Position numbers and translations under genes: made by a program. A DNA stretch of 64,000 bases, taken from assembly GCF_001677475.2 (NCBI RefSeq), contig NZ_CP015229.1; one strand, 5' to 3'. Position 1 is the first letter of the stretch; the number at the start of each line of letters is the position of its first letter. Below the pieces are notes generated by a model that saw nothing but the letters and a program-made list of their open reading frames with translations, ran no database searches and had not been told where the DNA came from. This document shows, piece by piece, positions 19,181 through 64,000 of this stretch. This DNA is from Escherichia coli (lineage in GTDB: Bacteria; Pseudomonadota; Gammaproteobacteria; Enterobacterales; Enterobacteriaceae).

Positions 19181-19201
19181 TCGTTAATCCGAAAATAACG
19201 T

Positions 19202-19228
19202 AAAAACCCGCTTCGGCGGGTTTTTTTA
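19202..19228 (+). terminator. rpoC intrinsic terminator
   Basis: Hairpin AAAAACCCGCUUCGGCGGGUUUUUUUA 22 nt after the rpoC stop. Confidence 0.85.
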
Positions 19229-19261
19229 TGGGAGTTATTCAGAGGGCAAAGTCTTCACGGG

Positions 19262-19308
19262 AAATATTAAGAAAGGCAGGGCGAAACGAGGAAGAAGCTT
19301 TTCGCCCT
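19262..19308 (-). terminator. Putative terminator of the thi operon
   Basis: Minus-strand hairpin CAGGGCGAAA...UUUCGCCCUG followed by a U-rich tract downstream of the thiH stop. Confidence 0.4.
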
Positions 19309-19421
19309 GGACAACATTCCTGCTGACGGCACTACCATAAAAAAACACAACGCTTTCAACAACCTTGCGTTTTTCATCTTCCGGAGCTGCTCGGAATAAA
19401 TTTACGTTCTTACATTCCGTC

Positions 19422-29949: not shown

Positions 29950-30375
29950 TTACCAGTGGCCCATACCCATATGACCGCCACCACCGCAGCCGCCGTAGCC
30001 CATGCCCATTCCGGCTCCGCGCGGAATACCCGCTTCAGCCATCGCAATATCCCGTTTCACCCGTAACTCATCTAACGACTGACGCAAATTCTCCATCTCT
30101 TTGGCGACCGCGTTAATTTTGCTGCTATCCGGTGGGTTCGCGGCTAACAGGGCATTGTATTCATAACGCTTCGTCACCAGTTGCTGTTGCAGTGCGCTGC
30201 TTTGAGCGTAAAAGTCATTATGGATTTTCTGCCACGCTGTCTGTTGTTCGCTGGTCAAAGGCGCGGCATTTTGCTGCCACATACCGTGTCCGCCGTGAGC
30301 AAATGCAGATGTCGATCCCATCGCCATTGCTGAAAGCGCCATCATTACCAGGGCAATTTTCGTGTTCCGTTTCAT
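29950..30375 (-). CDS. zraP: Zinc-resistance-associated periplasmic protein
   Basis: Start set to ATG giving 141 aa (MKRNTKIALVMMALSAMAMG... signal peptide, Gly/Met/His-rich C-terminus). Confidence 0.9.
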   Translation of the reverse strand: MKRNTKIALVMMALSAMAMGSTSAFAHGGHGMWQQNAAPLTSEQQTAWQKIHNDFYAQSSALQQQLVTKRYEYNALLAANPPDSSKINAVAKEMENLRQSLDELRVKRDIAMAEAGIPRGAGMGMGYGGCGGGGHMGMGHW

Positions 30376-30410
30376 GGTTAATCCTCCAGTGGTTGTCTTA
30401 CTTCGGGTAT

Positions 30411-30426
30411 TGCATCTTCCGTGCCA
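30411..30426 (-). promoter_or_regulatory. Sigma54 promoter of zraP
   Basis: Minus-strand TGGCAC-GGAAGA-TGCA with GG/GC spaced 10 nt, about 35 nt upstream of the zraP start. Confidence 0.65.
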
Positions 30427-30469
30427 ACGATGAAACGCTGATATGACGGGTAATCTGGCATGATAAACG

Positions 30470-30515
30470 AGTAAAAATGACTCGCCTGCTGCGGGTAGCG
30501 AGTCATTTTTACTCA
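30470..30515. promoter_or_regulatory. ZraR enhancer site (inverted repeat) between zraP and zraS
   Basis: Perfect 17-bp inverted repeats GAGTAAAAATGACTCGC ... GCGAGTCATTTTTACTC separated by 12 bp. Confidence 0.7.
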
Positions 30516-30565
30516 TTGAAACTTAAGCCTTTGTGTTACAGCGCAGGGTAAGCGCTGATAAAAGA

Positions 30566-30581
30566 TGGCATGATTTCTGCT
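30566..30581 (+). promoter_or_regulatory. Sigma54 promoter of zraSR
   Basis: TGGCAT-GATTT-CTGC with GG/GC spaced 10 nt, about 30 nt upstream of the zraS ATG. Confidence 0.55.
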
Positions 30582-30612
30582 GTCAGAAAGGGATGAGCAG
30601 GCAAAGAAGAAG

Positions 30613-31989
30613 ATGCGTTTTATGCAACGTTCTAAAGACTCCTTAGCTAAATGGTTAAGCGCGATCCTCCCCGTGGTCATTGTTGGGCTGGTGGGGCTGT
30701 TTGCGGTGACTGTGATTCGCGATTATGGGCGCGAGACTGCCGCCGCCAGACAAACGCTGCTGGAAAAAGGCAGTGTACTTATCCGTGCTCTCGAATCCGG
30801 CTCGCGCGTCGGCATGGGGATGCGCATGCATCATGCGCAGCAGCAGGCATTACTGGAAGAAATGGCCGGGCAGCCTGGTGTACGTTGGTTTGCGGTCACG
30901 GATGAACAAGGAACAATCGTGATGCATAGCAACTCCGGCATGGTGGGAAAACAGCTTTATTCCCCGCAGGAAATGCAGCAGTTACATCCGGGAGATGAAG
31001 AAGCGTGGCGGCGGATCGATAGCGCAGACGGCGAGCCTGTTCTGGAAATTTATCGCCAGTTTCAACCGATGTTTGCTGCTGGAATGCACCGGATGCGCCA
31101 TATGCAGCAGTATGCCGCGACACCACAAGCAATTTTCATCGCTTTCGACGCCAGTAATATTGTGAGTGCCGAAGATCGTGAGCAGAGAAACACCCTGATT
31201 ATCCTTTTCGCCCTGGCGACGGTCTTGCTGGCAAGCGTATTGTCATTCTTCTGGTATCGCCGCTATCTGCGCTCGCGCCAGCTTCTACAAGATGAAATGA
31301 AGCGCAAAGAGAAGCTGGTGGCGCTGGGGCATCTTGCGGCAGGCGTTGCCCACGAAATCCGTAACCCACTTTCCTCGATTAAAGGACTGGCGAAATACTT
31401 TGCCGAGCGCGCGCCTGCAGGGGGAGAAGCGCATCAACTGGCGCAGGTGATGGCGAAAGAGGCCGACCGTTTAAACCGCGTGGTAAGCGAGTTGCTGGAA
31501 CTGGTTAAGCCAACGCATCTGGCTTTGCAGGCGGTGGATCTCAACACGCTGATTAACCACTCATTACAGCTGGTAAGCCAGGATGCAAACAGCCGGGAGA
31601 TCCAGTTACGCTTTACCGCCAACGACACATTACCGGAAATTCAGGCCGATCCGGACAGGCTGACTCAGGTCCTGTTGAATCTCTATCTCAATGCTATTCA
31701 GGCGATTGGTCAGCATGGCGTGATTAGCGTGACGGCCAGCGAAAGCGGCGCGGGCGTGAAAATTAGCGTTACCGACAGCGGTAAGGGAATTGCGGCAGAT
31801 CAGCTTGAAGCCATCTTCACCCCGTACTTCACCACCAAAGCCGAAGGCACCGGACTGGGGCTGGCGGTCGTGCATAATATTGTTGAACAACACGGTGGTA
31901 CAATTCAGGTCGCAAGCCAGGAGGGAAAAGGCGCAACGTTCACCCTCTGGCTTCCGGTCAATATTACGCGTAAGGACCCACAAGGATGA
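30613..31989 (+). CDS. zraS: Sensor histidine kinase of the ZraSR two-component system
   Basis: 458-aa ORF with TM N-terminus, H-box (HEIRNPL) and ATPase G-boxes. Confidence 0.93.
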   Translation: MRFMQRSKDSLAKWLSAILPVVIVGLVGLFAVTVIRDYGRETAAARQTLLEKGSVLIRALESGSRVGMGMRMHHAQQQALLEEMAGQPGVRWFAVTDEQGTIVMHSNSGMVGKQLYSPQEMQQLHPGDEEAWRRIDSADGEPVLEIYRQFQPMFAAGMHRMRHMQQYAATPQAIFIAFDASNIVSAEDREQRNTLIILFALATVLLASVLSFFWYRRYLRSRQLLQDEMKRKEKLVALGHLAAGVAHEIRNPLSSIKGLAKYFAERAPAGGEAHQLAQVMAKEADRLNRVVSELLELVKPTHLALQAVDLNTLINHSLQLVSQDANSREIQLRFTANDTLPEIQADPDRLTQVLLNLYLNAIQAIGQHGVISVTASESGAGVKISVTDSGKGIAADQLEAIFTPYFTTKAEGTGLGLAVVHNIVEQHGGTIQVASQEGKGATFTLWLPVNITRKDPQG

Positions 31990-33311
31990 CGCACGATAAT
32001 ATCGATATTCTGGTGGTGGATGATGACATTAGCCACTGCACTATTTTGCAGGCTTTACTGCGCGGCTGGGGCTATAACGTCGCGCTGGCGAACAGCGGGC
32101 GACAGGCGCTGGAGCAGGTGCGGGAGCGAGTTTTTGATCTTGTGCTTTGCGATGTGCGAATGGCAGAGATGGATGGCATCGCCACGCTGAAAGAGATCAA
32201 AACATTAAACCCCGCGATTCCGGTGCTGATTATGACCGCGTACTCCAGCGTCGAGACGGCGGTAGAGGCGTTGAAAACCGGGGCGCTGGATTATCTCATC
32301 AAGCCGCTGGATTTCGATAACCTGCAGGCGACGCTGGAAAAGGCGCTCGCACATACGCACAGTGTTGACGCTGAAACGCCTGCGGTGTCTGCCAGCCAGT
32401 TCGGTATGGTCGGTAAAAGCCCGGCGATGCAACACCTGCTCAGTGAAATCGCCCTCGTCGCGCCATCGGAAGCCACGGTGCTGATCCACGGCGATTCCGG
32501 CACCGGTAAAGAGTTGGTCGCCAGGGCGATTCACGCCAGTAGCGCACGGAGTGAAAAACCACTGGTAACGCTCAACTGTGCGGCACTCAACGAATCCTTG
32601 CTGGAATCTGAATTGTTCGGTCACGAAAAAGGGGCGTTTACTGGAGCTGATAAACGCCGGGAAGGGCGCTTTGTTGAGGCGGATGGCGGCACGTTGTTTC
32701 TCGATGAAATTGGCGATATCTCGCCGATGATGCAGGTGCGTCTGCTACGTGCGATTCAGGAGCGCGAAGTTCAGCGTGTCGGTAGCAACCAGACTATTTC
32801 GGTTGATGTCCGGCTGATTGCGGCGACTCATCGCGATCTTGCCGCAGAGGTGAATGCCGGGCGTTTTCGCCAGGATCTCTACTATCGCCTGAATGTGGTG
32901 GCGATTGAAGTACCGTCGCTGCGGCAACGGCGGGAAGATATTCCTCTGCTGGCTGGTCATTTTCTTCAGCGCTTTGCCGAACGTAATCGCAAGGCGGTAA
33001 AAGGTTTTACGCCCCAGGCGATGGATCTGCTGATTCATTACGACTGGCCGGGCAATATTCGTGAGCTGGAAAATGCGGTGGAACGGGCAGTGGTGCTGCT
33101 GACCGGGGAATATATTTCCGAACGCGAGCTGCCGCTGGCGATTGCCAGTACGCCGATCCCGCTGGTACAAAGTCAGGATATTCAGCCGCTGGTGGAAGTC
33201 GAAAAAGAAGTGATTCTGGCGGCACTGGAGAAAACGGGCGGCAACAAAACCGAAGCCGCCCGTCAGTTAGGGATCACGCGCAAAACGCTATTGGCAAAAC
33301 TGTCGCGTTAG
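31986..33311 (+). CDS. zraR: Sigma54-dependent response regulator ZraR
   Basis: 441-aa ORF with receiver domain, AAA+ sigma54-activation domain (GAFTGA) and C-terminal HTH. Confidence 0.95.
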
Positions 33312-36814: not shown

Positions 36815-38356
<1,542 letters not shown>

Positions 38357-38710: not shown

Positions 38711-41612
<2,902 letters not shown>

Positions 41613-41709
41613 ACAACGCCGAAGCTGTTTTGGCGGATGAGAGAAGATTTTCAGCCTGATACAGATTAAATCGACAGGTCAGAACATGACGTGTTGATAA
41701 AACAGAATT

Positions 41710-41829
41710 TGCCTGGCGGCCGTAGCGCGGTGGTCCCACCTGACCCCATGCCGAACTCAGAAGTGAAACGCCGTAGCGCCGATGGTAGTGTGGGGTCTCC
41801 CCATGCGAGAGTAGGGAACTGCCAGGCAT
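41710..41829 (+). rRNA. rrfE: 5S ribosomal RNA
   Basis: 120-nt sequence identical to the 5S copy at 1244-1363. Confidence 0.97.
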
Positions 41830-41832
41830 CAA

Positions 41833-41876
41833 ATAAAACGAAAGGCTCAGTCGAAAGACTGGGCCTTTCGTTTTAT
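41833..41876 (+). terminator. rrn T1 intrinsic terminator (rrnE copy)
   Basis: Same hairpin and U-tract as at 1367-1410. Confidence 0.88.
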
Positions 41877-41983
41877 CTGTTGTTTGTCGGTGAACGCTCT
41901 CCTGAGTAGGACAAATCCGCCGGGAGCGGATTTGAACGTTGCGAAGCAACGGCCCGGAGGGTGCCAGGCATCAAATTAAGCAG

Positions 41984-42014
41984 AAGGCTCAGTCGGAAGA
42001 CTGGGCCTTTTTGC
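41984..42014 (+). terminator. rrn T2-like terminator (rrnE copy)
   Basis: Hairpin AAGGCUCAGUCGGAAGACUGGGCCUUUUUGC. Confidence 0.7.
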
Positions 42015-42032
42015 ATTGGCGCAGAAAATAAT

Positions 42033-42057
42033 GCCGGATGCGACGCTGGCGCGTCTG
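42033..42057. repeat. Truncated REP-like element
   Basis: GCCGGATGCGACGCTGGCGCGTC matches the 5' half of the REP consensus. Confidence 0.5.
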
Positions 42058-42089
42058 CTCCAGCTTACGCAGGCACGATAGGGGGCAGC

Positions 42090-42533
42090 TTATTCCCCCA
42101 CATATGCCAGATTCAGCAATGGATACGGTTTCCCCAAATCGTCCACCTCAGAGCGTCCCGTAACCTTAAAACCCACCTTCTTATAGAACCCAACCGCCTG
42201 CTCATTTTGCTCATTAACATTGGTTGTCAGTTCCGGGGCCATTGAGAGCGCATGCTCCACCAGCATCCGACCCACGCCGCAGCCGCACACATCAGGATCG
42301 ATAAACAGCGCATCCATATGCTGCCCACTTAACAACATAAACCCAACCGGCTGATCCCGTTCATTAACCGCGACCCACAACGGTGCTTCCGGCAGAAAGG
42401 AACGCACCAGCTCTTCCAGCTCGGCCCGATACTCCGCTGATAAAAAATCGTGGGTGGCATCGACAGATCGACACCAAATCGCAACGAGTTCTTCCCCTTC
42501 CTCATGCCGCGAGCGGCGAATACTAATAACCAT
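42090..42533 (-). CDS. yjaB: GNAT-family N-acetyltransferase
   Basis: 147-aa ORF with acetyl-CoA-binding motif (GCGVGRMLV). Confidence 0.9.
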   Translation of the reverse strand: MVISIRRSRHEEGEELVAIWCRSVDATHDFLSAEYRAELEELVRSFLPEAPLWVAVNERDQPVGFMLLSGQHMDALFIDPDVCGCGVGRMLVEHALSMAPELTTNVNEQNEQAVGFYKKVGFKVTGRSEVDDLGKPYPLLNLAYVGE

Positions 42534-42646
42534 TTTCTCTCCTTTTCGTCATTCTTATATTCTAACGTAGCCTTTTCCTTGAAACTTTCTCACCTTCAAC
42601 ATGCAGGCTCGACATTGGCAAATTTTCTGGTTATCTTCAGCTATCT

Positions 42647-42674
42647 GGATGTCTAAACGTATAAGCGTATGTAG
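42647..42674 (+). promoter_or_regulatory. Possible tandem MetJ boxes upstream of metA
   Basis: Three 8-bp units GGATGTCT-AAACGTAT-AAGCGTAT resembling the AGACGTCT met-box consensus (5-6/8 each). Confidence 0.3.
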
Positions 42675-42689
42675 TGAGGTAATCAGGTT

Positions 42690-43619
42690 ATGCCGATTCG
42701 TGTGCCGGACGAGCTACCCGCCGTCAATTTCTTGCGTGAAGAAAACGTCTTTGTGATGACAACTTCTCGTGCGTCTGGTCAGGAAATTCGTCCACTTAAG
42801 GTTCTGATCCTTAACCTGATGCCGAAGAAGATTGAAACTGAAAATCAGTTTCTGCGCCTGCTTTCAAACTCACCTTTGCAGGTCGATATTCAGCTGTTGC
42901 GCATCGATTCCCGTGAATCGCGCAACACGCCCGCAGAGCATCTGAACAACTTCTACTGTAACTTTGAAGATATTCAGGAACAGAACTTTGACGGTCTGAT
43001 TGTAACCGGTGCGCCGCTGGGCCTAGTGGAGTTTAATGATGTCGCTTACTGGCCGCAGATCAAACAGGTGCTGGAGTGGTCGAAAGATCACGTCACCTCG
43101 ACGCTGTTTGTCTGCTGGGCGGTACAGGCCGCGCTCAATATCCTCTACGGCATTCCTAAGCAAACCCGCACCGACAAACTCTCTGGCGTTTACGAGCATC
43201 ATATTCTCCATCCTCATGCGCTTCTGACGCGTGGTTTCGATGATTCATTCCTGGCACCACATTCGCGCTATGCTGACTTTCCGGCAGCGTTGATTCGTGA
43301 TTACACCGATCTGGAAATTCTGGCAGAGACGGAAGAAGGGGATGCATATCTGTTTGCCAGCAAAGATAAGCGCATTGCCTTTGTGACGGGCCATCCCGAA
43401 TATGATGCGCAAACGCTGGCGCAGGAATTTTTCCGCGATGTGGAAGCCGGACTAGACCCGGATGTACCGTATAACTATTTCCCGCACAATGATCCGCAAA
43501 ATACACCGCGAGCGAGCTGGCGTAGTCACGGTAATTTGCTATTTACCAACTGGCTCAACTATTACGTCTACCAGATCACGCCATACGATCTACGGCACAT
43601 GAATCCAACGCTGGATTAA
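42690..43619 (+). CDS. metA: Homoserine O-succinyltransferase
   Basis: 309-aa [26 protein letters not shown]... Confidence 0.96.
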
Positions 43620-43887
43620 TCTTCTGTGATAGTCGATCGTTAAGCGATTCAGCACCTTACCTCAGGCACCTTAGGGTGCCTTTTTTATTTCCGAAACGCA
43701 CCTCAGCAGGTGAATAAATTTTATTCATATTGTTATCAATAAGTTATCAAGTATTTTTAATTAAAATGGAAATTGTTTTTGATTTTGATTTTTAAATGAG
43801 TAGTCTTAGTTGTGCTGAACGAAAAGCGCACAACGATCCTTCGTTCACAATGGGGAAGTTTTCGGATCCATGACGAGGAGCTGCACG

Positions 43888-45489
43888 ATGACTGAACAGG
43901 CAACAACAACCGATGAACTGGCTTTCACAAGGCCGTATGGCGAGCAGGAGAAGCAAATTCTTACTGCCGAAGCGGTAGAATTTCTGACTGAGCTGGTGAC
44001 GCATTTTACGCCACAACGCAATAAACTTCTGGCAGCGCGCATTCAGCAGCAGCAGGATATCGATAACGGAACGTTGCCTGATTTTATTTCGGAAACAGCT
44101 TCCATTCGTGATGCTGACTGGAAAATTCGCGGGATTCCTGCGGACTTAGAAGATCGTCGGGTAGAGATTACCGGCCCGGTTGAGCGCAAGATGGTGATCA
44201 ACGCGCTCAACGCCAATGTGAAAGTCTTTATGGCCGATTTCGAAGATTCACTGGCACCAGACTGGAACAAAGTGATCGACGGGCAAATTAACCTGCGCGA
44301 TGCGGTTAACGGCACCATCAGCTATACCAATGAAGCAGGCAAAATTTATCAGCTCAAGCCCAATCCAGCGGTGTTGATTTGTCGGGTACGCGGTCTGCAC
44401 TTGCCGGAAAAACATGTCACCTGGCGTGGTGAGGCAATCCCCGGTAGCCTGTTTGATTTTGCGCTCTATTTCTTCCACAACTATCAGGCACTGTTGGCAA
44501 AGGGCAGTGGTCCCTATTTCTATCTGCCGAAAACCCAGTCCTGGCAGGAAGCGGCCTGGTGGAGCGAAGTCTTCAGCTATGCAGAAGATCGCTTTAATCT
44601 GGCGCGCGGTACCATCAAGGCGACGTTGCTGATTGAAACGCTGCCCGCCGTGTTCCAGATGGATGAAATCCTTCACGCGCTGCGTGACCATATTGTTGGT
44701 CTGAACTGCGGTCGTTGGGATTATATTTTCAGCTATATCAAAACGTTGAAAAACTATCCCGATCGCGTCCTGCCAGACAGACAAGCAGTGACGATGGATA
44801 AACCCTTCCTGAATGCTTACTCACGCCTGTTGATTAAAACCTGCCATAAACGCGGTGCTTTTGCGATGGGCGGCATGGCGGCGTTTATTCCGAGCAAAGA
44901 TGAAGAGCGCAATAACCAGGTGCTCAACAAAGTAAAAGCGGATAAATCGCTGGAAGCCAATAACGGTCACGATGGCACATGGATCGCTCACCCAGGCCTT
45001 GCGGACACGGCAATGGCGGTATTCAACGACATTCTCGGCTCCCGTAAAAATCAGCTTGAAGTGATGCGCGAACAAGACGCGCCGATTACTGCCGATCAGC
45101 TGCTGGCACCTTGTGATGGTGAACGCACCGAAGAAGGTATGCGCGCCAACATTCGCGTGGCTGTGCAGTACATCGAAGCATGGATCTCCGGCAACGGCTG
45201 CGTGCCGATTTATGGCCTGATGGAAGATGCGGCGACGGCTGAAATTTCCCGTACCTCAATCTGGCAGTGGATCCATCATCAAAAAACGTTGAGCAATGGC
45301 AAACCGGTGACCAAAGCCTTGTTCCGCCAGATGCTGGGTGAAGAGATGAAAGTCATTGCCAGCGAACTGGGCGAAGAACGTTTCTCCCAGGGGCGTTTTG
45401 ACGATGCCGCACGCTTGATGGAACAGATCACCACTTCCGATGAGTTAATTGATTTCCTGACCCTGCCAGGCTACCGCCTGTTAGCGTAA
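43888..45489 (+). CDS. aceB: Malate synthase A
   Basis: ORF track 539 aa; start set to ATG giving 533 aa ([23 protein letters not shown]...). Confidence 0.96.
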
Positions 45490-45518
45490 ACCACCACATA
45501 ACTATGGAGCATCTGCAC

Positions 45519-46823
45519 ATGAAAAACCGTACACAACAAATTGAAGAATTACAGAAAGAGTGGACTCAACCGCGTTGGGAAGGCATTACTCGCCCATACA
45601 GCGCGGAAGATGTGGTGAAATTACGCGGTTCAGTCAATCCTGAATGCACGCTGGCGCAACTGGGCGCGGCGAAAATGTGGCGTCTGCTGCATGGCGAGTC
45701 GAAAAAAGGCTACATCAACAGCCTCGGTGCACTGACTGGCGGTCAGGCGCTGCAACAGGCGAAAGCGGGTATTGAAGCAGTCTATCTGTCGGGATGGCAG
45801 GTAGCGGCGGACGCTAACCTGGCGGCCAGCATGTATCCGGATCAGTCGCTCTATCCGGCAAACTCGGTGCCAGCTGTGGTGGAGCGGATCAACAATACTT
45901 TCCGCCGTGCGGATCAGATCCAATGGTCCGCGGGCATTGAGCCGGGCGATCCGCGCTATGTGGATTACTTCCTGCCGATCGTTGCCGATGCGGAAGCCGG
46001 TTTTGGCGGTGTCCTGAATGCCTTTGAACTGATGAAAGCGATGATTGAAGCCGGTGCAGCGGCAGTTCACTTCGAAGATCAGCTGGCGTCAGTGAAGAAA
46101 TGCGGTCACATGGGCGGCAAAGTTTTGGTGCCAACTCAAGAAGCTATTCAGAAACTGGTCGCGGCGCGTCTGGCAGCTGACGTGACGGGCGTTCCAACCA
46201 TACTGGTTGCTCGTACCGATGCCGATGCAGCGGATCTGATTACCTCCGATTGCGACCCGTATGACAGCGAATTTATTACCGGCGAGCGTACCAGTGAAGG
46301 CTTCTTCCGTACTCATGCGGGCATTGAGCAAGCGATCAGCCGTGGCCTGGCGTATGCGCCATATGCTGACCTGGTCTGGTGTGAAACCTCCACGCCAGAC
46401 CTGGAACTGGCGCGTCGCTTTGCACAAGCTATCCACGCGAAATATCCGGGCAAACTGCTGGCTTATAACTGCTCGCCGTCGTTCAACTGGCAGAAAAACC
46501 TCGACGACAAAACTATTGCCAGCTTCCAGCAGCAGCTGTCGGATATGGGCTACAAGTTCCAGTTCATCACCCTGGCAGGCATCCACAGCATGTGGTTTAA
46601 CATGTTCGACCTGGCAAATGCCTATGCCCAGGGCGAAGGCATGAAGCATTACGTTGAGAAAGTGCAGCAGCCGGAATTTGCCGCTGCGAAAGATGGCTAT
46701 ACCTTCGTATCTCACCAGCAGGAAGTGGGTACAGGTTATTTCGATAAAGTGACGACCATTATTCAGGGCGGCACGTCTTCAGTCACCGCGCTGACCGGCT
46801 CCACCGAAGAATCGCAGTTCTAA
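45519..46823 (+). CDS. aceA: Isocitrate lyase
   Basis: ORF track 439 aa; start set to the ATG with GGAG 9 nt upstream giving 434 aa ([15 protein letters not shown]...); KKCGH active-site motif. Confidence 0.95.
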
Positions 46824-46862
46824 CAACCAACGCCCCTTTCCGTAAGGCGAGGGGCGAATTAA

Positions 46863-50763
<3,901 letters not shown>

Positions 50764-51079
50764 TTAAATATCTCATTGTTTATTGATGTCTTGAATTTTA
50801 ACTATCAGAACAGTGAAAAAATTTAATATGATTACAACTAAAGAAATATCATAAATCGCTCAATCTCATAATGCAGCCGTAAAAGTTTCGGTGGAATGAG
50901 ATCTTGCGATTTTGTTAATGATTAAGTGGTTTGATGTTTAAATATAATGCTGAGTTAATAAAAGTGTGTGAAGTGTATGACATTAAGTTATTTTGGCGTC
51001 AATGCGATTAACAGACACCCTTATTCTATTGCCACTCAGGTATGATGGGCAGAATATTGCCTCTGCCCGCCAGAAAAAG

Positions 51080-58799: not shown

Positions 58800-60029
58800 T
58801 TAATCATGGGAAATTGCCTCTGCATGGGCGAGCAGGTATTGCTCCGCCTCACCGGACCAGATCCCCTGATGACGCGCCAGAATCGCCGCCAGTGCTTGAT
58901 CCTGAATCTGCGTGAGTGACGTCAGCGGCAGGTATTTCCCGGTATACACCAGCTTTTTGCCGCCGCCGACGGCAGGCAATTCAAGCGTGGTTTCGCCCGC
59001 GGCATTCAGCCCAAGAATATGTGTTACCACTTTTGCGGCCTGCACTTTTTTCTCTTCAATCAATTTGACCGCTGCGCGCATGTCGTCGGTATTGCCGCCT
59101 GACGTGCCCACGTAGTGGGTAAATGCATAATGCACATCGTAGAAATTAATTGGCGCGCTGAAATGTTTATCCTGCGGTCCGGCGAAGAAATTCAGGCAAC
59201 CATCCGTCGCCAGCAAGGAAGAGGCGAGAGTCACCAGTCCTTCATTAGGCACAAAGACGAAAATATCATCGAAGCCGTGACCGCCACTCAGCGCCATTAA
59301 CGTATCAAATGCTGCATCGGTGGCATTGAGATAATGAATCAGTGTTTGCGGTTCTGATGGATAGTGCTTCCGCGCATAACTCAATTTATCGTTGTCGGTA
59401 TCGGTAATGACGAGCAGCGACGGGTTAACGGGTCCATGTAGCGCATAATCAATCGCCAACAGTCCCATTGGTCCGGTGCCGCCGAGGATCAGCGTGCGCC
59501 CTTGCGGGCGAATCCCCATCGTGTGGTTATAACTACCTTCCTGAAGATGATAGTTGGCGTTGAACGCGCCAATCACGCAGGAAAGCGGTTCAACCAGCGA
59601 GCCTTCAAAATAGGTTTCGCCGTCGTATGCCAGCAGGCAATCTTGTTCCATGACCTCGTTGGGAATAACTACATGCGTGGCTTCGCCGCCTACCCACGGG
59701 AAGGAGTAGCCGGGGCAGTCCGGGCGGTCGGGGAGTTGCAGGTTGGCCTGAATCACATAACGCTGACCCGGCTGGAATTTGTGCTGCCACTTTTTACCCA
59801 CGGCCAGAATATCGCCGCAAAACTCGTGGCCGATGATGATTGGGTTGGTCGCCACATCGTCGGGTACTTTTTTATGGTTTTCACCCAGATTGGCCTCTTT
59901 CCAGGAAGAGAGGCACAGGCTGTCAGTGACCACCGTCGCGAGGATTTCATCCTCCTGCATTTCAGGAAGATCAAAGGTTTCCAGGCGTAAATCACGTTTA
60001 CCATAAAGACGCAGAGCTGTTGTTTTCAT
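58800..60029 (-). CDS. sorE: L-sorbose-1-phosphate reductase (Zn-dependent dehydrogenase family)
   Basis: ORF track 413 aa; start set to ATG with GAGGTGG 6 nt upstream giving 409 aa (MKTTALRLYGKRDLRLETF...); last gene of a PTS operon. Confidence 0.85.
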   Translation of the reverse strand: MKTTALRLYGKRDLRLETFDLPEMQEDEILATVVTDSLCLSSWKEANLGENHKKVPDDVATNPIIIGHEFCGDILAVGKKWQHKFQPGQRYVIQANLQLPDRPDCPGYSFPWVGGEATHVVIPNEVMEQDCLLAYDGETYFEGSLVEPLSCVIGAFNANYHLQEGSYNHTMGIRPQGRTLILGGTGPMGLLAIDYALHGPVNPSLLVITDTDNDKLSYARKHYPSEPQTLIHYLNATDAAFDTLMALSGGHGFDDIFVFVPNEGLVTLASSLLATDGCLNFFAGPQDKHFSAPINFYDVHYAFTHYVGTSGGNTDDMRAAVKLIEEKKVQAAKVVTHILGLNAAGETTLELPAVGGGKKLVYTGKYLPLTSLTQIQDQALAAILARHQGIWSGEAEQYLLAHAEAISHD

Positions 60030-60080
60030 AAACCACCTCATGTTGAGCTATGGCCCCGGCAGTCGTGCCGGGGCGAAGAA

Positions 60081-60905
60081 TCAGGACAGGAAGCCCAGCG
60101 CATTGCCGATAATCCCTAAGCCAAACAGGGCGAAAATCAGCCATACCGGGTTAATTTTTTTGTTAAGCAGACGAACCATCAGTAGCGTCAGACCGAGCGC
60201 CAGCAAACCAGGGCAAAGTTGGTCGAGAATGTTCTGCACGGTCATGGTGACGGTGGAGCCATCGGCGGCATGCGTTTGTGAAACCACCAACGGTACGTTG
60301 ATTGACGTCCATTTGGTGACCAGCACGCCCATCACAAACAGTCCGAGAATCGACGCGCCTTCGGTGAGTTTTTGCAGCACATTCCCGCCCATATCGCTGA
60401 CGATATTCACCCCTTTGCGAAAGCCGAGCTGTAGGCCATACCACTTCATCGCCAGACGCACCGCATTGAAAATAAAGAAAAACAAAAGCGGGCCGAGGAT
60501 GTTGCCCGAAAGTGCCAGAGATGCGCCGAGCGCAGCGGTAATCGGGCGCAGCGTTCCCCAGACCAGTGGATCGCCAACTCCTGCCAATGGTCCCATCAGA
60601 CCGACTTTGATGCCGTTAATGGTACCGTCATCAATTTCCGCGCCGTTGGCCCGCGCCTCTTCCATGGCGGCAGTGACGCCGATGACCGGGCCACATACGG
60701 CTGGCGTGGTATTGAAGAACACCAGGTGTCGCCTGAGCGCCGCAACCTGATCCTCTTTTAATGGGTAAAGTCGCTTGATGGCGGGGATCATGTCGTAGCA
60801 AAAAACCAGCCCGTGAATACGTTCAAAGTTAAAGGACGCCTGTTGCAGGTTGGAGCGCAGAAACATGCTCACCAGATCGCTGCGTGTAATTTTTCTCTGT
60901 TCCAT
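60081..60905 (-). CDS. sorM: PTS mannose/sorbose-family EIID component
   Basis: ORF track 284 aa from TTG; start set to ATG with GGAG upstream giving 274 aa; IID-type membrane protein. Confidence 0.85.
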   Translation of the reverse strand: MEQRKITRSDLVSMFLRSNLQQASFNFERIHGLVFCYDMIPAIKRLYPLKEDQVAALRRHLVFFNTTPAVCGPVIGVTAAMEEARANGAEIDDGTINGIKVGLMGPLAGVGDPLVWGTLRPITAALGASLALSGNILGPLLFFFIFNAVRLAMKWYGLQLGFRKGVNIVSDMGGNVLQKLTEGASILGLFVMGVLVTKWTSINVPLVVSQTHAADGSTVTMTVQNILDQLCPGLLALGLTLLMVRLLNKKINPVWLIFALFGLGIIGNALGFLS

Positions 60906-60915
60906 GATGGCTCCG

Positions 60916-61713
60916 TTAATCGTCAAGTTGGTCAAGGGCGGTGGAGGCGGTGGCCTGGAGTTGAGGTTCAGCTTTACGCCACTGTGGATTTAGCTGGATG
61001 TAGACCAGGGCCATGATCACGCCGACGCCACCGAACGCCAGCAGACTGAGATCGAGGTAGCCACCTGCGAGGAAACCGAGGAAAAAGAAAGGCATCAAAT
61101 ATTTCACGCCCATCATACGTAGCACCATGGCGTAACCGACCACCACGATAAAACCGCCAGCAATTTGCAGACCTCGGGTCACAAATTCGGGAATGGCGTT
61201 TAACATATTGCTGACCATATCGGCGCTGACGAACAGCGAGACAATCAGTGCCGGAATGGCGACGCGCAGCGCCTGCACGCCAAGCGCGGAGACATGCAGA
61301 ATATCGAGAGTGCGAAACCGCGCCTCTTCTGCTGCTTTATCCGCCGCGTGCTGGAACACTACGGTGATGGTACGGGCAAACACAGTCAGCACCTGGCCTG
61401 CCGCAGCCACAGGCAACGCGATGGCGATTCCGGTGGCGATGCTTTGCTGACCAACGATAACCAGAATGGCGGAGATTATGCTGGCGAGTGCAGAATCTGG
61501 AGATTGCGCCGCGCCGACGTTCATCCAGCCGAGAGCTATCAATTCCAGCGTACCGCCGAGTATTATTCCGGTTTTTAAATCACCGAGAATTAAACCAATC
61601 ACCGTACAGGCAATTAACGGGCGATGAGTCTGAAATTCATCCAGCACGCTGCCCATTCCGGCAATACAGGAAAAAAGAAATATAGCAATAATTTGTAGGG
61701 TACTTATTTCCAT
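60916..61713 (-). CDS. sorA: PTS mannose/sorbose-family EIIC component
   Basis: 265-aa hydrophobic ORF (MEISTLQIIAIFLFSCIAGMGSVLDEF...). Confidence 0.88.
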   Translation of the reverse strand: MEISTLQIIAIFLFSCIAGMGSVLDEFQTHRPLIACTVIGLILGDLKTGIILGGTLELIALGWMNVGAAQSPDSALASIISAILVIVGQQSIATGIAIALPVAAAGQVLTVFARTITVVFQHAADKAAEEARFRTLDILHVSALGVQALRVAIPALIVSLFVSADMVSNMLNAIPEFVTRGLQIAGGFIVVVGYAMVLRMMGVKYLMPFFFLGFLAGGYLDLSLLAFGGVGVIMALVYIQLNPQWRKAEPQLQATASTALDQLDD

Positions 61714-61778
61714 GATTTGTCACCTTTTAAGTGTCGTCATCCCTGCCTGTTAAAGCATATGTACACAGGCGCTATTAT

Positions 61779-62273
61779 TTAATTTGCGATTAACTGTTCG
61801 TTTATTTTGTCGATAATATTGATTGAGGGATCTGACGCTACGACGCGTAAATCCAGTATGACGCCAAGATTATTTAACTCATGAAATGCGTTAATATCAT
61901 CATCATCTAATGAAACCGCTTTGGTTAACTGTTTTTTACCGGGCCGCCAGGCCATGCCGCCAATATTCAGGGTGTCTATTTTTACCCCCTGGCGAACCAT
62001 CGCTAAGGCATCCTGTGGGCGAGTGAAAAGATAAAAAACGGTTTCGTCCTGATATTGCGGGTTGTGATAAACCGCGACGGCTTTTTCAATATTGACCACG
62101 TTAACCTTCATTCCCGGTGGCGCAGCCTGACGCAATAATGTCCGGCGCACTTCATCGTTATAAACTTCGTCATTGCAGATAATAATGCGCTGGGCGTTAG
62201 CCACTTTCGACCAGACGGTAGTGACCTGGCCGTGGATCAGGCGGTCATCAATGCGGGCGAGCGTAATGTTCAT
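61779..62273 (-). CDS. sorB: PTS mannose/sorbose-family EIIB component
   Basis: 164-aa ORF with IIB phospho-His motif RIDDRLIHGQV. Confidence 0.88.
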   Translation of the reverse strand: MNITLARIDDRLIHGQVTTVWSKVANAQRIIICNDEVYNDEVRRTLLRQAAPPGMKVNVVNIEKAVAVYHNPQYQDETVFYLFTRPQDALAMVRQGVKIDTLNIGGMAWRPGKKQLTKAVSLDDDDINAFHELNNLGVILDLRVVASDPSINIIDKINEQLIAN

Positions 62274-62680
62274 CAGAAATCCTCCTCTGCTGTTGCCACC
62301 TGTCTCCAGACGACGCAGGTTTGCTTTGCGATTTGCGTCAGGTGTTCACACAGTTCATCAACATTCATGCTGTCCTGGTTATCAACCAGTTCGAGCGCCA
62401 GCGGCAGAGAAAGGCCGCTGATTACCCGCAGACGAGGATTGCGCATCGCAAGCATCGCTGCCGCATTCCACGGGCTGCCGCACTGTAAATCCACGGCGAT
62501 TAGCCACTCGTCATGATTGTGAATGCTCACTAACTTCTCCAGCTTTGCCACAATGTCTCCGGCGTTCTCGCCGGGCACAAATTCAACGGCTTCAACATTG
62601 GCGTTGCCGTAAACCATCTGAACCGATTCCAGCATGGCGCAAGCTAATTTGCCGTGGGCACAAAAAATGGCGTTGACCAT
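62273..62680 (-). CDS. sorF: PTS mannose/sorbose-family EIIA component
   Basis: 135-aa ORF (MVNAIFCAHGKLA...); stop overlaps the sorB start. Confidence 0.86.
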   Translation of the reverse strand: MVNAIFCAHGKLACAMLESVQMVYGNANVEAVEFVPGENAGDIVAKLEKLVSIHNHDEWLIAVDLQCGSPWNAAAMLAMRNPRLRVISGLSLPLALELVDNQDSMNVDELCEHLTQIAKQTCVVWRQVATAEEDF

Positions 62681-62689
62681 AAAGCCTCC

Positions 62690-63496
62690 TTATCCGCGTG
62701 TTTTGCCGCCCGCAATGTTAGTGGTTACTCCGGTGATGTAGCTGGCGCGTTCAGACAGCAGATAACAAACAAAATCAGCGACTTCTGCTAATCTTCCGGC
62801 GCGCCCAATAGGAATGGCGTTTTTGGTATAGCCTTCACGCAGCTGCTCGACGGTGATATTGCGCGTCCACGCCAGCGCTTCTTCATATTCCGGCGTGCGC
62901 AGTCCTGTTTTTTCCAGAATCCCCGGCGCGATACCGACCACACGGATACCGTGCTTACCCAGCTCTTTCGACCAGGAACGAGTGAAGCTATTGAGCGCAG
63001 CTTTAGTGGCGGCGTAGCAGCTCTGGCCTTCTGAGCCTTCCAGCCCACTTTCTGAGGAAACATTCACAATCACGCCATCGTGTTGTTTGACCATCTGTCG
63101 CGCCACCGCCTGCGACATCAGAAAAACGCCTTTCTGGTTGATATTGACCATTTTTTCGAATGCAGCTTCGTTGAGTTCATACTGCCCGGCAGGCGCTTTC
63201 TCATCGACCAGCAGACGCGGGAAATTGACCCCGGCGTTATTGACCAGACCGTCGATGCGATCAAAACGCTGGATAATTTCCGCTACCGTATGATTTACCT
63301 CTTTGGCGCTGGAAATATCGGTCGGCCAAAACTGATAGCCTTTATGACCTTCATATTGTCCATCGCCACCGTGAATATCGACCATCTGTACATTCGCGCC
63401 TTGTGCTAATAATTCCTCTACAATCGCCAGACCAATACCGGATGCGCCGCCGGTGACGATAATGATTTTATCCTGCAAATTTAACCACGTTTGCAT
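62690..63496 (-). CDS. sorD: Sorbitol(glucitol)-6-phosphate 2-dehydrogenase (short-chain dehydrogenase/reductase)
   Basis: 268-aa ORF with TGGASGIG cofactor motif and YxxxK catalytic pair. Confidence 0.86.
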   Translation of the reverse strand: MQTWLNLQDKIIIVTGGASGIGLAIVEELLAQGANVQMVDIHGGDGQYEGHKGYQFWPTDISSAKEVNHTVAEIIQRFDRIDGLVNNAGVNFPRLLVDEKAPAGQYELNEAAFEKMVNINQKGVFLMSQAVARQMVKQHDGVIVNVSSESGLEGSEGQSCYAATKAALNSFTRSWSKELGKHGIRVVGIAPGILEKTGLRTPEYEEALAWTRNITVEQLREGYTKNAIPIGRAGRLAEVADFVCYLLSERASYITGVTTNIAGGKTRG

Positions 63497-63565
63497 AACA
63501 GACTCCTGATTTTAGATAATAGGGACCCGCCGTAATTTTTATTACGGTAAACATCGGGAAGATTT

Positions 63566-64000
63566 TTATTTCAGTAATAGTTCAGCTGTGCTGCTATTCG
63601 TTACCAGACAATTAATATATTTTCCACGCAGTGCACCAACAATTCCGCTGTATTTTTCTTCACTCATGGCAATGCCAATGGAATATCGTGCCTGCTTTAA
63701 TTTATTCATTTCGATAGAGAGTGTTTTTTCGCTCATATTCGTTTCAACCATTGCGCCGTGAATATCAAAAAAGCGCGAGCAAATATCGCCAGCAACCTGG
63801 CGGGCATTCAGGTCGTCACTCTCTTCACCACCATAAAACGCATGCCAGTTAGCGCCGTCGCGAATGGCCGGTGAGCCAATTCCCACCAGGGCGACATCCA
63901 GATTATCCCAGTAGGCAGAGATGGTTTTAAAGTGCTGAGACTGCATGATCCCATTACGAATTAATGGGTTATCCAGCAGAGCCGGAAAATCCGCGAGATG
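63566..64000 (-). CDS. sorC: SorC-family transcriptional regulator of the sor operon, C-terminal part only (5' end beyond the window)
   Basis: Reading frame stays open from 63566 to the window end (...HLADFPALLDNPLIRNGIMQSQHFKTISAYWDNLDVALVGIGSPA...); sugar-phosphate-binding domain of SorC/DeoR type. Confidence 0.75.
   Translation of the reverse strand, partial: HLADFPALLDNPLIRNGIMQSQHFKTISAYWDNLDVALVGIGSPAIRDGANWHAFYGGEESDDLNARQVAGDICSRFFDIHGAMVETNMSEKTLSIEMNKLKQARYSIGIAMSEEKYSGIVGALRGKYINCLVTNSSTAELLLK

What the first reader, a model, noticed from the sequence alone, without database searches (positions are those of the whole stretch)
41830..42089. yjaA is absent between rrfE and yjaB (phylotyping marker); with arpA present this constrains the phylogroup
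In the K-12 reference, yjaA (about 127 aa) sits between the 5S gene of rrnE and yjaB. Here the rrn terminators are followed after only about 75 bp by the yjaB stop codon, with a truncated REP-like element (42033-42057) at the position where yjaA would lie and no plus-strand ORF. yjaA and arpA are both markers in the Clermont phylotyping PCR schemes. The combination arpA-present and yjaA-absent argues against phylogroups B2 and F (arpA-negative) and against K-12-like yjaA-positive backgrounds, and is compatible with B1, D, E or yjaA-negative A strains.
Basis: partly seen in the sequence, partly recalled or inferred. Interest (0 to 1): 0.35.

Follow-up and report, generated by a model that had tools for sequence, protein, structure and literature searches.

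The report
yjaA-null allele downstream of rrnE
This E. coli chromosome carries the common version of the rrnE–yjaB junction that lacks the small gene yjaA and holds only ribosomal-RNA terminators and a decayed repeat element, an ordinary strain-typing polymorphism found in about half of all E. coli.

Summary
The 262 bp between the 5S gene of rrnE (ends 41827) and the yjaB stop codon (42090) contain no yjaA. They hold an rrnB-type T1 terminator, a spacer, a T2-like terminator and a degenerate REP element.

K-12 has yjaA at this position, in a 520-bp interval that shares no homology with the window's interval. arpA is present and intact (48577-50763). The Clermont arpA primers match exactly and predict a 400-bp product. 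The yjaA primers have no site.

- The two states are alternative cassettes. Their right boundary is the last codon of yjaB.
- A yjaA homologue occupies the same site in a Salmonella salamae-annotated protein's contigs, in Phytobacter and in Kosakonia. The gene is therefore old here and was probably lost or replaced repeatedly.
- The window is a rare, deep E. coli lineage. It is 2.1-2.4% from the A (strain B), B1, E and G references over 17 kb, and its closest complete genome is 98.4% identical. It lies outside A and B1, so D or E is more likely.

This is a known marker and is ordinary.

The parts
41712..41827 (+). rrfE, the 5S rRNA gene of rrnE. It is the left conserved flank of the polymorphic cassette.
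   Evidence: Rfam RF00001, 92.8 bits. Identical to the window's rrnB 5S. Homology with K-12 continues to about 8 nt past the 5S end.
41833..41876 (+). rrnB-type terminator T1: a 20-bp stem followed by a T-rich tail that runs to about 41885.
   Evidence: Called by the terminator scan. Fold -32.7 kcal/mol, z -10.8. Identical to the copy downstream of the window's own rrnB.
41877..41979 (+). Spacer between the terminators, including a small hairpin at 41913-41933. It carries a private 26-bp deletion, with the junction at 41963|41964, that removes the GGCGGGCAGGACGCCCGCC hairpin.
   Evidence: 156 nt from T1 through the spacer are identical to the rrnB copy up to the deletion. Close relatives L012 and L013 keep the 26 bp. 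The deletion junction occurs in only 1 of 5,426 complete genomes, about 42 kb from that genome's rrfE-yjaB junction.
41980..42014 (+). T2-like intrinsic terminator: core stem 41986-42007 and T-run 42008-42012.
   Evidence: Fold -28.6 kcal/mol, z -4.9, followed by UUUUUGC. It aligns with the rrnB T2 with 2 stem substitutions. The simple consensus scan did not call it.
42032..42069 (+). Degenerate REP element, conserved at this position in yjaA-less Escherichia alleles.
   Evidence: The 5' arm is canonical; the 3' arm reads GCGTCTGCTCCAGC where a canonical REP would read GCGTCTTATCCGGC. The fold is not better than shuffles. The same element, with small variations, is present in 10 of 10 yjaA-less E. 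coli loci and in Escherichia sp. E1V33.
42090..42533 (-). yjaB (GNAT acetyltransferase), convergent with rrnE. Sites 42090, 42093 and 42094 (stop codon and last codon) mark the right boundary of the cassette.
   Evidence: 147-aa ORF. Pfam Acetyltransf_1 is recorded on the identical protein. Of 52 variable sites, only these three co-segregate with yjaA status: the protein ends ...VGE* in yjaA- strains and ...VGA* or ...VGV* in yjaA+ strains.
48577..50763 (-). arpA (annotated espL4 in RefSeq), intact at 728 aa.
   Evidence: ORF listing. The orthologue in close relatives hits Pfam Toxin_15 and, faintly, Ank_2. K-12 arpA sits at the same position.
48198..48597 (+). In-silico quadruplex arpA amplicon (AceK.f to ArpA1.r), 400 bp.
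   Evidence: Both primers match exactly. Primer sequences and product size come from PMC4322292 Table 1.
50078..50378 (+). Target of the group-E allele-specific arpA PCR (301 bp). The window's allele is a hybrid.
   Evidence: The ArpAgpE.f site has the E-type 3' base and one internal mismatch. The ArpAgpE.r site has the non-E 3'-terminal base. O55:H7 matches both primers exactly, while K-12, strain B, O103:H2 and two other references mismatch at the 3' end of both.

Best explanation
The interval 41828-42089 is the yjaA-null allele of a well-known presence/absence polymorphism at the rrnE-yjaB junction of E. coli. In place of the roughly 520-bp K-12-type cassette (its own rrnE terminator, yjaA and a 3' spacer), the window has a non-homologous 262-bp cassette. 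That cassette consists of two tandem intrinsic terminators of the rrnB T1/T2 type, which end rrnE transcription, and a decayed REP element just past the 3' end of the convergent gene yjaB. The two cassettes share flanks: the 5S gene on the left and yjaB up to its last codon on the right. They are exchanged between strains by homologous recombination in those flanks. As a typing marker, the window scores arpA-positive (400 bp) and yjaA-negative. Under the Clermont scheme this excludes B2, F, C and K-12-like A strains and leaves A, B1, D or E. Sequence distance shows a rare, deep E. coli lineage outside A and B1, so D or E is the likelier call. What is shown: the anatomy, the absence of yjaA, the presence of arpA, the in-silico PCR results, the allele boundary and the population frequencies. 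What is inferred: that the hairpins act as terminators, that the T1-spacer block was homogenised with rrnB by gene conversion, that yjaA is ancestral at this site, and the D-or-E call.
For: - yjaA is absent by tblastn, blastn and primer search.
- K-12 has yjaA at this position.
- The K-12 alignment shows no homology from 5S+8 nt to the last codon of yjaB.
- The window's interval is identical to its own rrnB T1-spacer-T2 except for a 26-bp deletion and 2 nt.
- Hairpin stabilities: T1 z -10.8, T2-like z -4.9. T1 was also called by the terminator scan.
- The same terminator-REP-yjaB layout is in 10 of 10 other yjaA-less E. coli loci and in two close relatives.
- yjaA DNA is present in 2,594 of 5,426 complete genomes. 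In 2,779 genomes one contiguous place covers at least 80% of the window's interval query, which is the yjaA-less layout.
- Only sites 42090, 42093 and 42094 track yjaA status. Strain B (yjaA-) and K-12 (yjaA+) differ in yjaB at those 3 sites only.
- The arpA ORF is intact and its primers match exactly.
- Distances over 17.4 kb: 2.15% to B1, 2.17% to E, 2.36% to strain B (A), 2.18% to G and 2.97% to B2, on a separate branch.
- The best complete-genome identity is 98.4% over 24 kb and 97.3% over 9 kb.
- Six of the ten window proteins looked up (AceK, PurD, PurH, ThiC, ZraR, ThiH) are identical to GenBank E. coli entries ANO919xx.
Against: Nothing contradicts the null-allele reading. The weak points are these:
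- T2 was not called by the consensus terminator scan, and terminator function was not tested.
- The REP is too degenerate to fold better than shuffled sequence, so any role for it is doubtful.
- The phylogenetic placement rests on 17 kb of a region with visible recombination. The zraPSR allele, for example, is shared by K-12 and CFSAN061763 at about 92-93% identity to the window.
- The phylogroups of three reference strains (E300010, VCSW7, CFSAN061763) were not verified.
- chuA and TspE4.C2 are outside the window.
Confidence: 0.9

Rival explanations
1. The absence of yjaA is an assembly artefact: a collapse or mis-join at the rRNA repeat that dropped a roughly 500-bp segment.
For: The interval abuts a 5-kb rRNA repeat. 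Its first 207 bp duplicate the sequence downstream of rrnB in the same window. The window also has a private 26-bp deletion not seen in its closest relatives.
Against: Two independent drafts of close relatives read through the same T1-T2-REP-yjaB sequence into unique DNA. Thousands of complete genomes have the yjaA-less layout, and O103:H2 FWSEC0007 has the T1-T2 form in one contiguous match. The allele-specific yjaB last codon (..VGE*) is the one that always accompanies yjaA-less cassettes.
Confidence: 0.02
2. The window is not E. coli sensu stricto but a cryptic Escherichia clade or another species, so Clermont phylogroup logic does not apply.
For: None of the 5,426 complete RefSeq E. coli genomes is closer than 98.4% over 24 kb. 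The yjaA-null cassette also occurs in Escherichia sp. E1V33.
Against: The window is clearly closer to the A (strain B), B1, E and G references (2.1-2.4%) than to B2 (3.0%). That places it inside E. coli diversity and not outside it. Six of its proteins are identical to NCBI entries labelled Escherichia coli. The arpA quadruplex primers match exactly. From my own recollection, not tested here, Clermont clade I profiles are yjaA-positive.
Confidence: 0.04
3. The yjaA-null state is an independent, recent deletion of yjaA in this lineage, not an inherited alternative cassette.
For: yjaA homologues at the same site in distant Enterobacteriaceae show that the gene is old there, so the null states must ultimately derive from loss.
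Against: The window shares no residual K-12-type sequence with K-12: neither the K-12 rrnE terminator nor the yjaA 3' spacer. It shares its REP, its junction and the yjaB last codon with yjaA-less strains of B1, E, A (strain B) and G and with another Escherichia species. This indicates a single old null cassette spread by recombination.
Confidence: 0.05

Closest known systems
Clermont phylotyping markers yjaA and arpA (triplex 2000, quadruplex 2013; ClermonTyping 2018)
   Same: The locus is the yjaA marker locus itself. The window gives the classical yjaA-negative, arpA-positive (400 bp) result, with the published primers matching or failing as expected.
   Different: Nothing differs in kind. 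The arpA allele is unusual at the group-E allele-specific sites: the forward-primer site has the E-type 3' base and the reverse-primer site has the non-E 3' base. ClermonTyping reports that arpA alleles can mislead, citing ECOR44 and IAI42, which are D by Mash but E by arpA.
rrnB T1-T2 tandem terminators of E. coli
   Same: 41828-42014 is a copy of the T1-spacer-T2 block found downstream of the window's own rrnB. It is 100% identical over T1 and the spacer and has strong hairpin-plus-U-tract folds.
   Different: It sits downstream of rrnE, not rrnB. It lacks the 26-bp inter-terminator hairpin, and its T2 stem has two substitutions that make it resemble T1. Many other yjaA-less E. coli have only one terminator here.
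REP (repetitive extragenic palindromic) elements
   Same: It has the length, position (3' end of a convergent gene pair) and 5' arm TGCCGGATGCGACGC of a REP. Canonical REPs occur at the equivalent place in Salmonella, Citrobacter and Klebsiella.
   Different: The 3' arm is mutated, so the palindrome is largely lost and the fold is no more stable than shuffled sequence. A search with a canonical consensus at up to 3 mismatches does not find it.
K-12 yjaA (b4011, 'stress response protein', YjaA family)
   Same: It occupies the same chromosomal slot between rrfE and yjaB.
   Different: The gene is entirely absent from the window, with no remnant.

Membership tests
Clermont yjaA-negative genotype | No product with yjaA.1b/yjaA.2b (211 bp in positive strains) | tested here: met
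   No site for either primer with up to 5 mismatches in the window. Exact sites 211 bp apart in K-12 and ST131. Primer sequences from PMC4322292 Table 1.
Clermont yjaA-negative genotype | No yjaA coding sequence at the rrfE-yjaB locus | tested here: met
   tblastn and blastn found only chance hits. The alignment to K-12 shows non-homologous cassettes.
Clermont arpA-positive genotype | 400-bp product with AceK.f/ArpA1.r | tested here: met
   Exact matches at 48198-48217 and 48578-48597, giving 400 bp.
Phylogroup E (arpA allele-specific PCR) | Both ArpAgpE primers match, including their 3' ends (301 bp) | tested here: not met
   The forward primer has one internal mismatch with its 3' base matching. 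The reverse primer has a 3'-terminal mismatch, the same base as in the non-E references. O55:H7 matches both exactly.
Phylogroups A, B1, D and E (full quadruplex assignment) | chuA and TspE4.C2 status | not testable with these tools
   Both markers lie outside the 64-kb window, and the source genome is not in the searchable collections.
Phylogroups A and B1 | Close sequence relationship to A or B1 reference strains | tested here: not met
   The window is 2.15% from O103:H2 (B1), 2.36% from strain B (A) and 3.11% from K-12 (A). B1 and strain B are only 1.39% apart. The window forms a separate branch in the NJ tree of 17.4 kb.
rrnB-type T1-T2 tandem terminator | Two G+C-rich hairpins, each followed by a U-tract, in the rrnB order | tested here: met
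   T1 z -10.8 and T2-like z -4.9. Alignment to the window's rrnB copy. The simple scan called only T1.
rrnB-type T1-T2 tandem terminator | Termination activity | not testable with these tools
   This needs transcript 3'-end mapping.
REP element | Imperfect palindrome that forms a stable stem-loop | tested here: not met
   MFE z-scores of 0.19 (+) and -1.28 (-) against shuffles. The 3' arm carries about 3 substitutions relative to a canonical REP.

The most novel reading that the evidence does not exclude
The rrnE-yjaB junction may hold two non-homologous 'idiomorph' cassettes: yjaA, or terminators plus a REP. Both may be ancient and may persist across species boundaries in Enterobacteriaceae as a long-lived polymorphism, moved by recombination between the invariant 5S gene and the last codon of yjaB. 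On this reading the null state would not be the product of many independent losses. The yjaA+ layout occurs in E. coli, E. whittamii, contigs carrying a YjaA protein annotated as Salmonella salamae, Phytobacter and Kosakonia. The null layout occurs in E. coli, Escherichia sp. E1V33, S. diarizonae, S. arizonae, Citrobacter and Klebsiella. If true, this would imply selection that maintains both states of a small stress-response gene.
Probability: 0.12. Interest if true: 0.3.

Novelty: already known. Interest (0 to 1): 0.1.

Why it matters
It matters little beyond bookkeeping. The yjaA and arpA calls are a quick and correct sanity check on strain background. They show that this sequence is not K-12-like and not B2 or F. 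Two points are of modest use. First, the window belongs to a rare, deep E. coli lineage with no complete RefSeq genome within 1.6%, and its arpA allele would give an ambiguous result in the group-E allele-specific PCR. That is a practical warning for marker-based typing. Second, the yjaA polymorphism is a clean cassette replacement with a boundary at the last codon of yjaB, and yjaA is old at this site. This explains why the marker tracks phylogeny only imperfectly: strain B and K-12, both group A, differ in it.

Tried and rejected
- **Source genome.** The window's ArpA protein is not on record exactly. Six other proteins match GenBank ANO919xx entries from a 5,498,453-bp E. coli genome, but I could not name the strain. 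Literature searches for 'TA464' and for guessed strain names returned only irrelevant papers. A search for 'phylogroup H' with arpA gave nothing usable.
- **Canonical REP search.** A 36-nt REP consensus at up to 3 mismatches found no match in the window. The element is identifiable only by its 5' arm and by comparison with other strains.
- **Terminator scan.** It called only T1. T2 had to be supported by folding.
- **E. albertii.** The contig ends 21 bp after yjaB, so its state is unknown.
- **Shigella.** I considered it because no complete E. coli genome is close. I rejected it on the absence of any IS element in 64 kb (my reading of the ORF list) and on the E. coli labels of identical proteins.
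- **Cryptic clade I.** Rejected because B2 is more distant than the other phylogroups.

Full report
**Setting.** The window is an Escherichia coli chromosome segment. It runs from the 3' end of rrnB through murB-birA-coaA, four tRNAs, tufB, secE-nusG, rplKAJL, rpoBC, the thi operon, rsd-nudC-hemE-nfi, hupA, zraPSR and purDH. It continues through rrnE (16S 36815-38356, tRNA-Glu, 23S 38711-41612, 5S 41712-41827). After rrnE come yjaB (42090-42533, minus strand), metA, aceBAK, arpA (48577-50763, minus strand), iclR, metH, yjbB, pepE and a sorbose operon. Gene names come from the annotated reference loci.

**Observation.** The 262 bp between the 5S gene and the yjaB stop codon contain no yjaA.
- K-12 YjaA (tblastn) and the K-12 yjaA region (blastn) give only chance hits anywhere in the window.
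- Neither Clermont yjaA primer has a site.
- K-12 MG1655 has yjaA (b4011) annotated between rrfE and yjaB, in a 520-bp interval.
The T-run of the second terminator ends at 42012 and the yjaB stop codon starts at 42090.

**Anatomy of the interval.** Positions 41828 to about 42014 are a copy of the T1-spacer-T2 block that also lies downstream of rrnB at the start of the window. The two copies are identical through T1 and the spacer. The rrnE copy has a 26-bp deletion that removes the small GGCGGGCAGGACGCCCGCC hairpin, and two substitutions in the T2 stem.
- T1 (41833-41876) folds at -32.7 kcal/mol (z -10.8) and was called by the terminator scan.
- The T2-like hairpin (core 41986-42007, T-run 42008-42012) folds at -28.6 kcal/mol (z -4.9). 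The simple scan did not call it.
- A REP-like element follows at 42032-42069. Its 5' arm is canonical, its 3' arm carries about three substitutions, and its fold is no more stable than shuffled sequence. 'Degenerate' describes it better than 'truncated'.
- The 26-bp deletion is private. Two close relatives keep the 26 bp. The deletion junction occurs in only 1 of 5,426 complete genomes, about 42 kb from that genome's rrfE-yjaB junction.

**Comparison with K-12 and other strains.** The window and K-12 align perfectly up to about 8 nt past the 5S gene and again from the last codon of yjaB. Between those points there is no homology. The two states are therefore alternative cassettes, not an insertion or deletion within shared sequence.

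Ten other E. coli loci that encode the identical YjaB protein are all yjaA-less. They share the REP and the junction with the window, but they have a single terminator in place of T1-spacer-T2. The T1-T2 form also exists in complete genomes, for example O103:H2 FWSEC0007, which matches the window's interval in one piece.

Across 12 yjaB sequences there are 52 variable sites. Only 42090, 42093 and 42094 (the stop codon and the last codon) co-segregate with yjaA status. YjaB ends ...VGE in yjaA-less strains and ...VGA or ...VGV in yjaA-positive strains. Strain B (yjaA-less) and K-12 (yjaA-positive), both group A, differ in yjaB at exactly those three sites. The cassette boundary is therefore sharp, and the cassettes move between backgrounds by recombination in the flanks.

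**Frequency.** yjaA DNA is found in 2,594 of 5,426 complete RefSeq E. coli genomes (47.8%), almost always as a single copy. The remaining 52% lack it. In 2,779 genomes, one place covers at least 80% of the window's interval query, which is the yjaA-less layout. The yjaA-less state is slightly the majority.

**Age of yjaA at this site.** The YjaA family occurs patchily in Enterobacterales and beyond.
- In Phytobacter diazotrophicus and Kosakonia sp. S29, a homologue 65-66% identical sits between the 5S gene and a convergent yjaB.
- Contigs carrying homologues of 72%, 67% and 63% identity begin with yjaA and continue through convergent yjaB, metA and aceB. The 63% protein is annotated as Salmonella enterica subsp. 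salamae in NCBI.
- E. whittamii has yjaA there, with a protein 100% identical to K-12 YjaA.
- S. enterica subsp. diarizonae and subsp. arizonae, several Citrobacter and Klebsiella species, Pseudocitrobacter and Escherichia sp. E1V33 have terminator(s) plus REP and then yjaB. S. diarizonae has the full T1-spacer-hairpin-T2-REP layout.

My inference is that yjaA is ancestral at this slot and has been lost or replaced repeatedly. Whether the null cassettes of different genera are homologous cannot be decided, because they consist of repeated elements (rrn terminators and REPs).

**arpA and in-silico typing.** arpA is an intact 728-aa ORF.
- AceK.f and ArpA1.r match exactly, 400 bp apart.
- The primer sequences and product sizes were first recalled from memory. 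They were then verified in Table 1 of PMC4322292 and validated on references. The yjaA primers give 211 bp in K-12 and ST131, the arpA primers give 400 bp in K-12, and the ArpAgpE primers match exactly, 301 bp apart, only in O55:H7.
- ST131 (B2) lacks arpA, with aceK followed directly by iclR.
- By the published profiles, arpA+ with yjaA- leaves A (+---), B1 (+--+), D or E (++-- or ++-+). It excludes B2, F, C and K-12-type A strains.
- At the group-E allele-specific sites the window is a hybrid. The forward-primer site has the E-type 3' base and one internal mismatch. The reverse-primer site has the non-E 3' base. I predict a negative or weak E-specific PCR. ClermonTyping notes that arpA alleles can mislead through horizontal transfer.

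**What lineage is it?** No complete RefSeq E. coli genome is closer than 98.4% over 24 kb, 97.3% over the 9-kb stretch from the rrnE terminators through aceBAK-arpA to iclR, or 97.8% over arpA. Six of the ten window proteins looked up are identical to GenBank E. coli entries ANO919xx from a 5,498,453-bp genome. Two draft genomes are 99.5-99.6% identical to the window.

| Reference (phylogroup) | Distance from the window over 17.4 kb |
|---|---|
| O103:H2 (B1) | 2.15% |
| O55:H7 (E) | 2.17% |
| Strain B (A) | 2.36% |
| ST117 (G) | 2.18% |
| VCSW7, E300010 (phylogroup not verified) | 2.13%, 2.22% |
| ST131 (B2) | 2.97% |
| K-12 (A) | 3.11% |
| CFSAN061763 (phylogroup not verified) | 3.10% |

The K-12 and CFSAN061763 values are inflated by a divergent zraPSR allele that those two strains share. 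For comparison, B1 and strain B are 1.39% apart. The window forms its own branch in the NJ tree.

The window therefore lies inside E. coli sensu stricto, because it is closer to the non-B2 groups than to B2. It is not a typical A or B1 strain. With arpA present, D or E is the likelier assignment. This cannot be settled without chuA and TspE4.C2, and the 17-kb region shows recombination.

**Verdict.** The feature is a known typing polymorphism in its common null state and is of low interest. The added details are the cassette boundary, the age of yjaA at this site, the hybrid arpA allele and the rarity of the lineage. They are minor refinements.

Noticed in passing
window 19181-19421 (rpoC-thiH intergenic; junction about 19233-19259): yjaZ (htrC) and most of sroH, present in K-12 between rpoC and thiH, are absent. 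About 947 bp of K-12 sequence are replaced by about 27 bp. ST117 and VCSW7 also annotate no gene between rpoC and thiH. This is a second presence/absence polymorphism in the window.
   Followed up: partly
window 41963|41964: A private 26-bp deletion removes the hairpin between T1 and T2. It is flanked by a TG microhomology. It is absent from the window's own rrnB copy and from the two closest relatives, and the junction occurs in only 1 of 5,426 complete genomes, at another position in that genome. It is either a real rare mutation or a sequencing error.
   Followed up: partly
window 50078-50101 and 50355-50378 (arpA): The arpA allele is a hybrid at the two 3'-terminal SNPs used by the group-E allele-specific PCR: E-type at the forward primer and non-E at the reverse primer. 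This could give ambiguous D/E typing for this lineage.
   Followed up: yes
whole window; 10800-34600 and 41828-51000 tested: None of the 5,426 complete RefSeq E. coli genomes is within 1.6% of the window. Two drafts (GCA_037967675.1 and GCA_018428245.1) and a GenBank genome with ANO919xx proteins are near-identical. The window represents a rare, deep E. coli lineage.
   Followed up: partly
window 46824-46871 (aceA-aceK spacer): The spacer is 48 bp and lacks the cluster of REP elements that fills the 182-bp K-12 spacer. Other references have spacers of 48 to 280 bp.
   Followed up: no
window 41613-41711 (23S-5S spacer of rrnE): The rrnE spacer differs from the window's rrnB spacer and from K-12 rrnE by a replaced segment: ...atcgacaggtcagaacatgacgtgttgataaaacag against ...atcagaacgcagaagcggtctgataaaacag. 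A similar 'cgtgttgataaaacag' version is seen in Klebsiella pneumoniae.
   Followed up: no
window 29950-33311 (zraP-zraS-zraR): K-12 and CFSAN061763 share a zraPSR allele only about 92-93% identical to the window, while the other references are 97-98% identical. This looks like a recombined or imported allele block.
   Followed up: no
window 58800-63946: A sorbose operon (sorE plus PTS IID/IIC/IIB/IIA and an SDR oxidoreductase gene) lies after pepE, as in O55:H7, ST131, E300010 and CFSAN061763. It is absent from K-12, strain B and O103:H2, where rluF follows pepE directly.
   Followed up: partly
window 42090-42533 (yjaB): yjaB is unusually polymorphic: 52 variable sites in 444 bp among 12 sequences and up to 6% pairwise divergence, against about 2% for neighbouring genes. 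The pattern is mosaic and unrelated to yjaA status.
   Followed up: partly
L014 (Escherichia whittamii Sa2BVA5): The species representative labelled E. whittamii has a YjaA protein 100% identical to K-12 YjaA and a yjaB only 6 nt from K-12's. At this locus it is indistinguishable from group A E. coli.
   Followed up: no
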